A stretch of 30,027 bases of DNA from a virus (taxonomy: Duplodnaviria > Heunggongvirae > Uroviricota > Caudoviricetes). The DNA lies in the IMG/VR virus record IMGVR_UViG_2609459840_000012, positions 1 through 30,027 of that record. One strand, written 5' to 3'. Below are positions 10,039-10,058 of this stretch, one piece after another. The position numbers were made by a program, and so were the translations under genes. The number at the start of each line of letters is the position of its first letter. The stretch's first letter is position 1. A model generated the notes under the pieces. It searched no databases. It was not told the DNA's origin and saw nothing but the letters and a program-made list of their open reading frames with translations.

Positions 10039-10058
10039 ACCGCTGCGGCGGTTTTTTT
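10039..10058 (+). terminator. Hairpin plus T7 (ACCGC-TGCG-GCGGT-TTTTTTT) just upstream of the capsid gene
   Basis: Seen in sequence; near-identical to the element at 17757-17776. Confidence 0.45.

What the first reader, a model, noticed from the sequence alone, without database searches (positions are those of the whole stretch)
10039..10058. Near-identical hairpin plus T7 module reused upstream of the capsid gene and the tape measure gene
ACCGCTG(C/A)GGCGGTTTTTTT occurs at 10039-10058 and at 17757-17776 (19 of 20 nt identical), each about 20-35 nt before the ribosome-binding site of a major structural gene. They have the form of intrinsic terminators inside the late operon and may be antiterminated, or act as RNA processing or stability elements that set the stoichiometry between low-copy and high-copy proteins.
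Basis: seen in the sequence. Interest (0 to 1): 0.45.

Follow-up and report, generated by a model that had tools for sequence, protein, structure and literature searches.

The report
Ordinary terminators punctuating a prophage late operon
The two look-alike hairpin-plus-T7 elements are real, conserved terminator-shaped signals of a type already annotated in the late operon of phage HK97, and their near-identity is a coincidence of a small terminator "vocabulary", not a reused module.

Summary
ACCGCTGCGGCGGTTTTTTT (10039-10058) and ACCGCTGAGGCGGTTTTTTT (17757-17776) are the only such matches. They lie between the large terminase gene and the protease-capsid gene, and between the T-like chaperone gene and the tape-measure gene, of an E. 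coli lambdoid prophage.

- **What they are.** Both are canonical intrinsic-terminator shapes on the sense strand. The window has at least five more: before the major tail gene, before J, on both sides of lom, plus a weak one inside the tail-completion gene's 3' end.
- **Conservation.** In 55 prophages from different species, such hairpins precede the major tail gene in 48/51, the tape-measure gene in 42/53, J in 37/41 and capsid-fusion orthologs in 5/5. None precede six other late genes. Stems differ widely.
- **Prior knowledge.** The HK97 GenBank record already marks "putative terminator" at the same junctions.
- **The near-identity.** It is not special. Terminator stems use few sequences, 4 of 46 related prophages have an equally similar pair (permutation P=0.35), and in 15 of 33 close relatives site 2 has a different stem.

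Most likely these are terminators overridden by Q antitermination in lytic growth that block unmodified transcription in lysogens. Site 2 sits in the classic moron slot. No RNA 3'-end data could be checked. Interest is low.

The parts
10037..10058 (+). Site 1: hairpin GGACCGC/UGCG/GCGGUUU with a T7 run (10052-10058), between the TerL stop and the protease-capsid start
   Evidence: A hairpin plus T-run sits at this position in 79/80 metagenome relatives and 5/5 orthologs from other species.
17755..17776 (+). Site 2: hairpin GAACCGC/UGAG/GCGGUUU with a T7 run (17770-17776), between the T-like chaperone stop and the tape-measure start. This is the classic moron slot, empty here.
   Evidence: 42/53 distant relatives have a terminator here. 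The HK97 counterpart at 8398-8422 is annotated as a putative terminator.
8351..10012 (+). Terminase large subunit gene, upstream of site 1
   Evidence: Pfam TerL_ATPase and TerL_nuclease; RefSeq annotation of L001.
10076..12013 (+). Prohead protease-major capsid fusion gene (GTG start; SD AGGAGG at 10065-10070)
   Evidence: Pfam Peptidase_S78 and Phage_capsid.
17466..17747 (+). Tail assembly protein T-like ORF, upstream of site 2
   Evidence: RefSeq annotation of L001, 'phage tail assembly protein T'.
17795..21037 (+). Tape measure protein gene (SD GGAG at 17783-17786)
   Evidence: Pfam TMP_3, Phage_HK97_TLTM and Tape_meas_lam_C.
16298..16320 (+). Sister element: hairpin GACCCGC/cgcgu/GCGGGUU plus T-run, 16 nt before the major tail gene ATG (16337)
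   Evidence: 48/51 relatives have one here. HK97 6692-6719 is annotated as a terminator.
23576..23609 (+). Sister element: 9-bp hairpin GCAGGCACC/GGUGCCUGU plus a U-rich tail, before J (23642)
   Evidence: 37/41 relatives have one here. HK97 15107-15129 and lambda 15463-15482 are counterparts.
27048..27080 (+). Sister element: terminator between J and lom
   Evidence: The lambda counterpart is at 18920-18935.
27725..27755 (+). Sister element: terminator between lom and the tail fibre gene
   Evidence: A nearly identical hairpin is at lambda 19612-19633.

Best explanation
Both elements are Rho-independent (intrinsic) transcription terminators on the sense strand of a lambdoid late operon. They belong to a set of at least seven such signals in the window. 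Six sit in the operon's few intergenic gaps: before the protease-capsid gene, the major tail gene, the tape-measure gene and J, and on both sides of lom. The seventh, a weak one, lies inside the tail-completion gene's 3' end.

Inferred mechanism:
- In lytic growth, RNA polymerase modified by the phage's Q-type antiterminator at the late promoter ignores these terminators and makes one long late transcript.
- In the lysogen, any unmodified polymerase stops at them. That includes read-through, spurious starts and transcription from moron promoters.
- Structural-gene expression therefore stays strictly Q-dependent, and moron transcripts are bounded.

Site 2 occupies the chaperone | tape-measure junction, the archetypal moron slot. 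In about half of relatives a moron gene sits just upstream of the same terminator.

The 19/20 identity between the two sites is convergence. Short C-rich/G-rich stems, stable tetraloops and a T7 run are drawn from a small pool of sequences that work well as terminators.

Shown here: anatomy, strand bias, positional conservation with stem turnover, and lack of within-genome copying. Inferred: actual termination and Q read-through.
For: 1. Anatomy. A 5-7 bp GC stem, a tetraloop and a T7 run, with hairpin energies of -8 to -11 kcal/mol. No + strand promoter-like site occurs in 7000-26999.

2. Strand and place.
- In 55 species-representative loci there are 253 sense versus 67 antisense terminator-like sites.
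- Inside coding sequence the sense rate is only 4.5e-5 per nt, which predicts 0.4% of 90-nt windows.
- Yet such sites precede V in 48/51, the tape-measure gene in 42/53, J in 37/41 and capsid-fusion orthologs in 5/5.
- None precede the portal, head-closure, gp10, tail-completion, T or K genes.

3. Structure is kept while sequence changes.
- More than 12 different stems occur at the tape-measure junction.
- Arm changes are compensatory, for example ACCGC/GCGGT versus ACCTGC/GCAGGT and versus ACCCGC/GCGGGT.
- Sense-only U.G pairs occur.
- Loops are dominated by UNCG, with some GNRA.

4. Context. The 99.7%-identical prophage L001 has a Q-like antiterminator (PHROG 753, E=7e-75) after rusA and upstream of the lysis and terminase genes.

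5. Precedent.
- The HK97 record annotates putative terminators before the protease, major tail, tape-measure, I and J genes.
- Lambda has hairpin plus T-run before E and J and around lom.
- Morons are described as carrying their own promoter and terminator, and the first one (HK97 gp15) lies between the chaperone and tape-measure genes (PMC3594210).
- Internal terminators paired with processive antitermination act as insulators in Tn916 (PMC11658703).

6. Moron slot. 25/49 relatives carry an inserted ORF at the T | tape-measure junction, and 24/25 of these have the terminator right before the tape-measure gene. The same CCTGC/GCAGG hairpin is seen both with and without the insert.
Against: - No RNA 3'-end, termination or read-through data were available. 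The Sakai Term-seq exists, but its tables are not held.
- The stems are short, with a 5-bp GC core, so efficiency could be modest.
- In this window the operon is cut off from its Q gene and late promoter by a Mu-like insertion. Q control is therefore inferred from a near-identical relative.
- The insulation idea does not by itself explain why the terminators sit precisely before the capsid, tail-tube, tape-measure and J genes.
- 8 of 24 compact tape-measure junctions lack a terminator, so it is dispensable there.
- The conserved hairpin-U7-SD geometry also fits a role in translation or RNA processing.
Confidence: 0.7

Rival explanations
1. They are leaky terminators (attenuators) that remain partly active during lytic growth. 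Each one steps down the transcript level, which would tune the ratio of high-copy to low-copy virion proteins.
For: - Terminator anatomy.
- For site 2 and the J site the direction fits: low-copy tape-measure and tip genes lie downstream.
- The stems are short, so partial termination is plausible.
Against: - Site 1 and the major-tail site lie directly upstream of the two most abundant virion proteins and downstream of low-copy ones. A step-down there goes the wrong way.
- By established knowledge, Q-modified polymerase reads through terminators efficiently.
- 8/24 compact tape-measure junctions and phage HK022 manage without the terminator.
Confidence: 0.12
2. They act on the finished late mRNA rather than on transcription. 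Three variants are possible. The hairpin could protect upstream segments from 3' exonucleases after cleavage. The U-run could be an RNase E, Hfq or ribosomal protein S1 site. Or the hairpin-U7-SD arrangement could insulate and boost independent translation starts of the downstream gene.
For: - The T-run ends only 6 nt before the Shine-Dalgarno sequence at both sites, and the geometry is conserved: hairpin end 13-25 nt from the start codon.
- The elements occur only where translational coupling is broken.
- A hairpin without a T-run follows the capsid gene, which looks like a plain stabiliser.
- A few relatives keep the hairpin but have lost the T-run.
Against: - The T-run is conserved in most relatives and is exactly what termination needs. 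A stabiliser needs no U-run, and an S1 site needs no hairpin.
- The same design precedes both very high-copy and very low-copy genes.
- The elements are the same in form as the terminators that flank lom and morons.
Confidence: 0.13
3. The two copies are related by descent or copying: a duplicated or mobile module, gene conversion, or a DNA-level 'linker' that promotes recombination between phage modules.
For: - 19/20 identity, with zero matches in shuffled sequence.
- Mosaic breakpoints do lie next to the site-2 hairpin in relatives. Different upstream sequences join the same hairpin and tape-measure start.
Against: - No flank homology.
- The same stem is used in at least 120 unrelated viral contexts.
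- Within-genome similarity equals the permutation expectation, P=0.35.
- Alleles at the two sites assort independently in 33 close relatives.
- Sense-only U.G pairs and the tetraloop bias point to selection on RNA, not DNA.
Confidence: 0.04

Closest known systems
Putative factor-independent terminators annotated in the HK97 late operon (GenBank NC_002167: 3309-3335 before the protease gene, 6692-6719 before the major tail gene, 8398-8422 before the tape-measure gene, 13799-13824 before I, 15107-15129 before J)
   Same: Same junctions, strand, anatomy (GC hairpin plus T-run ending about 10-15 nt before the start codon) and operon type. The HK97 tape-measure gene is homologous (start MATLRE...).
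   Different: Stem sequences differ. In HK97 the tape-measure terminator follows the gp15 moron, whereas here the slot is empty. Here the head terminator follows TerL, because the gene order is TerL, protease-capsid fusion, then portal.
Phage lambda late operon under Q antitermination (tR' and downstream hairpins)
   Same: A long late operon read by Q-modified polymerase. Lambda has hairpin plus T-run before major capsid gene E (6098-6117), before J (15463-15482) and on both sides of lom. The lom | stf hairpin is almost the same as the window's at 27725-27746.
   Different: Lambda has no gap and no terminator before V or before H (T and H overlap). Q control is not visible in this window.
Morons (promoter-gene-terminator cassettes; HK97 gp15, lambda lom)
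   Same: Site 2 lies in the first-described moron slot, between the tail chaperone and tape-measure genes (PMC3594210). 25/49 relatives carry an ORF there, followed by the terminator.
   Different: The window has no moron ORF or promoter at either site: the gaps are 47 and 63 nt. Site 1 showed no inserts in the five orthologous TerL | capsid-fusion junctions where the gap was measured (all 58 nt).
Internal terminators plus processive antitermination in other mobile elements (Tn916 T1-T3 with canT; pLS20 conAn)
   Same: Several intrinsic terminators inside a long operon. They act as insulators in the integrated state and are bypassed by an element-encoded antitermination system (PMC11658703).
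   Different: Different hosts, elements and antiterminator types. Function was shown by experiment there and not here.

Membership tests
Rho-independent (intrinsic) terminator | GC-rich stem-loop with a 3-8 nt loop | tested here: met
   5-bp GC-rich core (7 pairs with the A-U and G.U extension), tetraloops UGCG and UGAG, -8 to -11 kcal/mol.
Rho-independent (intrinsic) terminator | Run of U directly after the stem | tested here: met
   T7 at both sites. The run is 6-8 T at site 1 and 7-9 T at site 2 in close relatives.
Rho-independent (intrinsic) terminator | Same orientation as the genes, in non-coding sequence after a stop codon | tested here: met
   Both are on the + strand, starting 25 and 8 nt after the upstream stop codons. 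Sense versus antisense counts are 253 versus 67 in relatives.
Rho-independent (intrinsic) terminator | Structure conserved through compensatory change | tested here: met
   Many stems occur at the same junction, with paired changes in both arms and sense-only U.G pairs. RNAalifold on a MAFFT alignment failed for register reasons, so this rests on per-sequence hairpin calls.
Rho-independent (intrinsic) terminator | RNA 3' ends at the U-run, or termination in vitro | not testable with these tools
   Term-seq for strain Sakai exists (PMC7547250), but no tables are held.
Q-antiterminated lambdoid late operon | Q-type antiterminator gene and late promoter upstream of the lysis, terminase, head and tail genes | tested here: inconclusive
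   Absent from the window, because a Mu-like prophage interrupts terS at 7933/7934. Present in the 99.7%-identical prophage L001: PHROG 753 Q-like, E=7e-75.
Q-antiterminated lambdoid late operon | Read-through of these terminators by Q-modified polymerase | not testable with these tools
   Needs in vitro transcription or induction RNA-seq.
Moron cassette | Extra ORF with its own promoter between conserved late genes, followed by a terminator | tested here: not met
   No ORF and no + strand promoter-like site in either gap. Only the terminator is present. Relatives do have the ORF at site 2.
Dispersed repeat or reused mobile module | Copies share flanks, or are more alike within a genome than between genomes | tested here: not met
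   No flank similarity. Permutation P=0.35. Alleles assort independently. The stem is used in many unrelated phages.

The most novel reading that the evidence does not exclude
The junction terminators may be resident, selectively kept punctuation of this family of late operons rather than parts brought in by morons. On this reading, morons are gained and lost immediately upstream of a pre-existing terminator and so get their terminator for free. That would explain why the chaperone | tape-measure junction is a moron hot spot, and perhaps also the I | J and J | fibre junctions. The fixed hairpin-U7-SD geometry might also serve as a translation-start insulator for genes that cannot be translationally coupled.
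Probability: 0.2. Interest if true: 0.4.

Novelty: new member of a known kind. Interest (0 to 1): 0.15.

Why it matters
There is little here that would surprise a phage specialist. Putative intrinsic terminators inside HK97-like late operons were annotated in 2000 and fit the textbook logic of Q antitermination.

The analysis does add three modest points:
- The terminators are positionally fixed across Enterobacterales prophages (before the capsid, tail-tube, tape-measure and J genes), with heavy stem turnover.
- They exist at the tape-measure junction even where no moron is present.
- Look-alike terminators within one genome are expected from a narrow stem and tetraloop vocabulary. They should not be read as repeats or reused modules.

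For annotation, these sites are unmarked in RefSeq prophage records and could be flagged. For EHEC biology, they predict where non-antiterminated transcription in lysogens should stop.

Tried and rejected
- **Rfam scan of the whole window:** no family reached the gathering score.
- **RNAalifold on a MAFFT alignment of 49 tape-measure upstream regions:** it predicted no pairs, because hairpins with different stem and loop lengths were out of register. I used per-sequence hairpin calls instead.
- **Link to known EHEC prophage sRNAs:** HnrS (EcOnc10-12) is a 66-nt Hfq-bound sRNA 'within the late genes' of Sp9, Sp10 and Sp12. The papers give neither sequence nor coordinates. I saw no CUUCU anti-RBS motif in the sequence just upstream of either site (sequence read). 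The link is unresolved and probably absent.
- **Sakai Term-seq tables:** not held.
- **Sakai prophage Sp15:** fetched to obtain coordinates, but it carries a lambda-type head module, not this one.
- **RNA duplex test of the I | J antisense candidate transcript against the hha leader:** not better than shuffles, P=0.2.
- **Alternative pairing at site 1:** GCGGU at 9985-9989, inside the TerL 3' codons, could pair with ACCGC of site 1 as an attenuator-style alternative. This was rejected because the upstream copy is absent in orthologs from other species.
- **Failed scripts:** the regular expressions returned nothing and were replaced.
- **Built-in terminator scan:** it misses site 2 only because its greedy stem extension uses up the T-run.

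Full report
**What the window is**

Positions 7934-30027 are the late (virion) region of an E. coli lambdoid prophage.
- It is 94% identical to long-tailed Stx phages such as JLK-2012, 2851 and YYZ-2008.
- It is 99.8% identical to E. coli PM4-5 (99.7% to STEC2018-607 and 14EC001), and the module occurs in 1257 of 5426 complete E. coli genomes.
- Pfam and the RefSeq annotation of a near-identical copy (L001) give the gene order: truncated terS, TerL (8351-10012), a prohead protease-major capsid fusion (10076-12013), a portal in two ORFs, connector genes, the major tail gene (16337-17053), G and T chaperones, the tape-measure gene (17795-21037), M, L, K, I, J (23642-27031), lom and tail fibre genes.
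- Positions 1-7933 are a Mu-like transposable prophage (MuA, MuB, Ner, Gam, repressor) in the opposite orientation. Its end abuts terS at 7933/7934.

**The observation**

They differ at one loop base and are the only matches at up to 3 mismatches; none appeared in 100 shuffles.
- Site 1 folds as GGACCGC-UGCG-GCGGUUU followed by more U.
- Site 2 folds as GAACCGC-UGAG-GCGGUUU followed by more U.
- Hairpin energies are about -8 to -11 kcal/mol.
- Site 1 starts 25 nt after the TerL stop, and site 2 starts 8 nt after the T stop.
- In both, the T-run ends 6 nt before the Shine-Dalgarno sequence of the next gene.
- There is no similarity beyond the 20 nt.

**They are two of a set**

A stricter terminator search finds six sense-strand sites in the late region, all in or at the edge of intergenic gaps:
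- 10037 (TerL | capsid)
- 16263 (weak) and 16298 (before the major tail gene)
- 17755 (T | tape measure)
- 27048 (J | lom)
- 27725 (lom | fibre)

The tool scan adds 23576, before J. Only three sites are on the antisense strand. No + strand promoter-like site occurs in 7000-26999. The one remaining gap over 40 nt, after the capsid gene, holds a stable hairpin without a T-run.

**Relatives of site 2**

An alignment of tape-measure N-termini retrieved 55 loci from species-representative genomes. They include Klebsiella, Serratia, Pantoea, Enterobacter, Kosakonia and Pectobacterium, at 51-77% protein identity. The retrieval was blind to the hairpin.
- 42 of 53 have a GC hairpin plus T-run ending 13-24 nt before the start codon.
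- More than 12 different stems are used, including GCCCGC, ACCCGC, ACCCACC, AACCUGC, ACCCUC and CCCCGC.
- A few keep the hairpin but have lost the T-run. A Pantoea/Erwinia group has neither.

**Relatives of site 1**

- 5 of 5 orthologs from other species (75-76% identity) have the hairpin at the same place.
- So do 79 of 80 metagenome relatives.
- Stems are ACCGC or (A/G)CCCGC. Loops are UCCG, UGCG, UACG, UUCG, CACG, GCAU and others.
- One variant is GAACUGC...GCGGUUU, with a U.G pair that works only in the sense RNA.

**Census of all junctions in the 55 loci**

| Gene preceded | Loci with a terminator-like site |
|---|---|
| Major tail gene | 48/51 |
| Tape-measure gene | 42/53 |
| J | 37/41 |
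| Capsid-fusion orthologs | 5/5 |
| G | 17/50 |
| I | 13/38 |
| L | 9/38 |
| Portal, head-closure, gp10, tail-completion, T, K | 0 |

- Sense sites outnumber antisense sites 253 to 67.
- Inside coding sequence the sense rate predicts 0.4% of 90-nt windows.
- The loci are related to one another, so the formal binomial P values overstate significance. The stem turnover nonetheless shows repeated, independent maintenance.

**Is the near-identity meaningful?**

No.
Loops were dominated by UNCG (TTCG 34, TCCG 16, TGCG 10) and GNRA.
- Among 136 junction terminators in the 55 loci, four 5-nt arms account for 75%: CCCGC, CCGCC, CCACC and ACCGC.
- 12.9% of pairs from different junctions share the core stem, and 2.2% are as alike as the window's pair.
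- 4 of 46 loci carry such a pair. Shuffling terminators among loci gives 2.98 +/- 1.49 (P=0.35).
- In 33 close relatives with both sites visible, site 1 (loop UGCG or UCCG) and site 2 (stem CCGC or CCUGC) assort independently. 15 of the 33 have the CCUGC stem at site 2.

The resemblance is therefore convergence on a small set of good terminator sequences. It is not duplication, conversion or a mobile module.

**What is already known**

- The HK97 GenBank record marks 'putative terminator' at 3309 (before the protease gene), 5192 (after the capsid gene), 6692 (before the major tail gene), 7443, 8398-8422 (12 nt before the homologous tape-measure gene), 13799 (before I) and 15107 (before J).
- My scan recovers four of these. 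It also finds lambda hairpins before E (6098), before J (15463) and on both sides of lom.
- HK022 has them before its major tail gene, I and J, but not before its tape-measure gene.
- A review of morons states that they carry their own promoter and terminator. It also states that the first one, HK97 gp15, lies between the tail chaperone and tape-measure genes (PMC3594210).

**The moron slot**

In the 55-locus sample, 25 of 49 T | tape-measure junctions carry a 277-1688 nt insert with an ORF.
- 24 of these 25 have the terminator right before the tape-measure gene.
- None has a terminator right after T.
- Of the 24 compact junctions, like the window's, 16 have the terminator.
- In close relatives the same CCUGC/GCAGG hairpin is seen with a 540-nt lipoprotein insert and without it.

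Site 2 is thus the terminator of an empty moron slot. Whether it is resident or a remnant is open.

**Mechanism**

L001 is 99.7% identical across the late region. It has a Q-like antiterminator gene (PHROG 753, E=7e-75) after rusA and upstream of the lysis and terminase genes.
- By the established Q mechanism, polymerase modified at the late promoter resists terminators. [quoted passage not shown]
- The best-supported reading is that these are true terminators, bypassed in lytic growth, that stop unmodified polymerase in lysogens.
- A tested parallel is Tn916, where internal terminators act as insulators and are bypassed by an element-encoded antiterminator (PMC11658703).

These steps are inferred. 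No 3'-end data could be examined.

**Rivals**

- A transcript-gradient role is unlikely for site 1 and the major-tail site. They precede the most abundant proteins.
- A role in RNA processing or translation remains possible. The hairpin-U7-SD geometry is tight and conserved, and a few relatives keep the hairpin without the U-run.

**Verdict**

- The feature is real and conserved, but of a known kind.
- The 'reuse' is coincidence.
The stoichiometry reading is weak.
- Interest is low.

Noticed in passing
window 1-7933 (junction 7933|7934): A Mu-like transposable prophage lies in reverse orientation and ends exactly inside the lambdoid small-terminase gene. It carries MuA (4637-6724), MuB (3633-4565), Ner (6727-6957), Gam (1750-2280), a Gp11-like gene and a repressor (7142-7687). 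terS lacks its first 143 nt, so the late operon is cut off from its Q gene and late promoter and the lambdoid prophage is probably defective. GGTATCAAAT-like repeats (one is CAGTATCAAAT) near 7760, 7813 and 7909 look like transposase binding sites.
   Followed up: partly
window 23405-23540, minus strand (I | J gap): A near-consensus sigma-70 promoter (TTCACA-16-TATAAT, 11 of 12) is followed about 75 nt later by a hairpin plus T7 terminator, all antisense to the late operon. This is a candidate small transcript of about 95-100 nt. The unit is present in 1097 of 5426 E. coli genomes, usually once, and has no Rfam match. It could not be matched to the published prophage sRNA HnrS or other EcOnc RNAs, because their sequences are not in the texts held.
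   Followed up: partly
window 12225-14809: The portal is encoded as two ORFs overlapping by 4 nt (12225-13589 and 13586-14809). The second matches residues 455-859 of a single 859-aa portal family (PHROG 2271). RefSeq calls the same arrangement 'frameshifted' in a near-identical prophage, and Stx phage records list two portal genes. This is either a fixed frameshift or a programmed one.
   Followed up: partly
window 12028-12049: A stable 8-9 bp GC hairpin (-16.9 kcal/mol for the folded 44-nt gap) with no T-run lies right after the capsid gene stop. HK97 has a hairpin at the same place (5192-5213), there annotated as a putative terminator and followed by four T. This looks like an mRNA 3' stabiliser rather than a terminator.
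   Followed up: partly
L201-L255 and L124/L125/L128 (T | tape-measure junction; window 17748-17794): The chaperone | tape-measure junction is a hot spot for inserted genes: 25 of 49 species-representative prophages carry a 277-1688 nt insert with an ORF. One E. coli relative has a 540-nt lipoprotein insert in front of the same hairpin that the compact allele carries.
   Followed up: yes
window 9985-9995: GCGGTTTTTTT, the 3' half of the module, also occurs inside the last codons of TerL (Ala-Val-Phe-Phe) and is complementary to ACCGC of site 1. It is not conserved in orthologs from other species, so it is probably a coding coincidence.
   Followed up: yes
window 27048-27071 and 27725-27746: lom is bracketed by two strong terminators, as in lambda. 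The downstream one is nearly identical to lambda 19612-19633.
   Followed up: partly
window 8351-14809: The head gene order is unusual: TerL, then a protease-capsid fusion, then a small ORF, then the portal. HK97 has TerL, portal, protease, capsid. In both phages a terminator-like hairpin sits directly before the protease-coding sequence.
   Followed up: no
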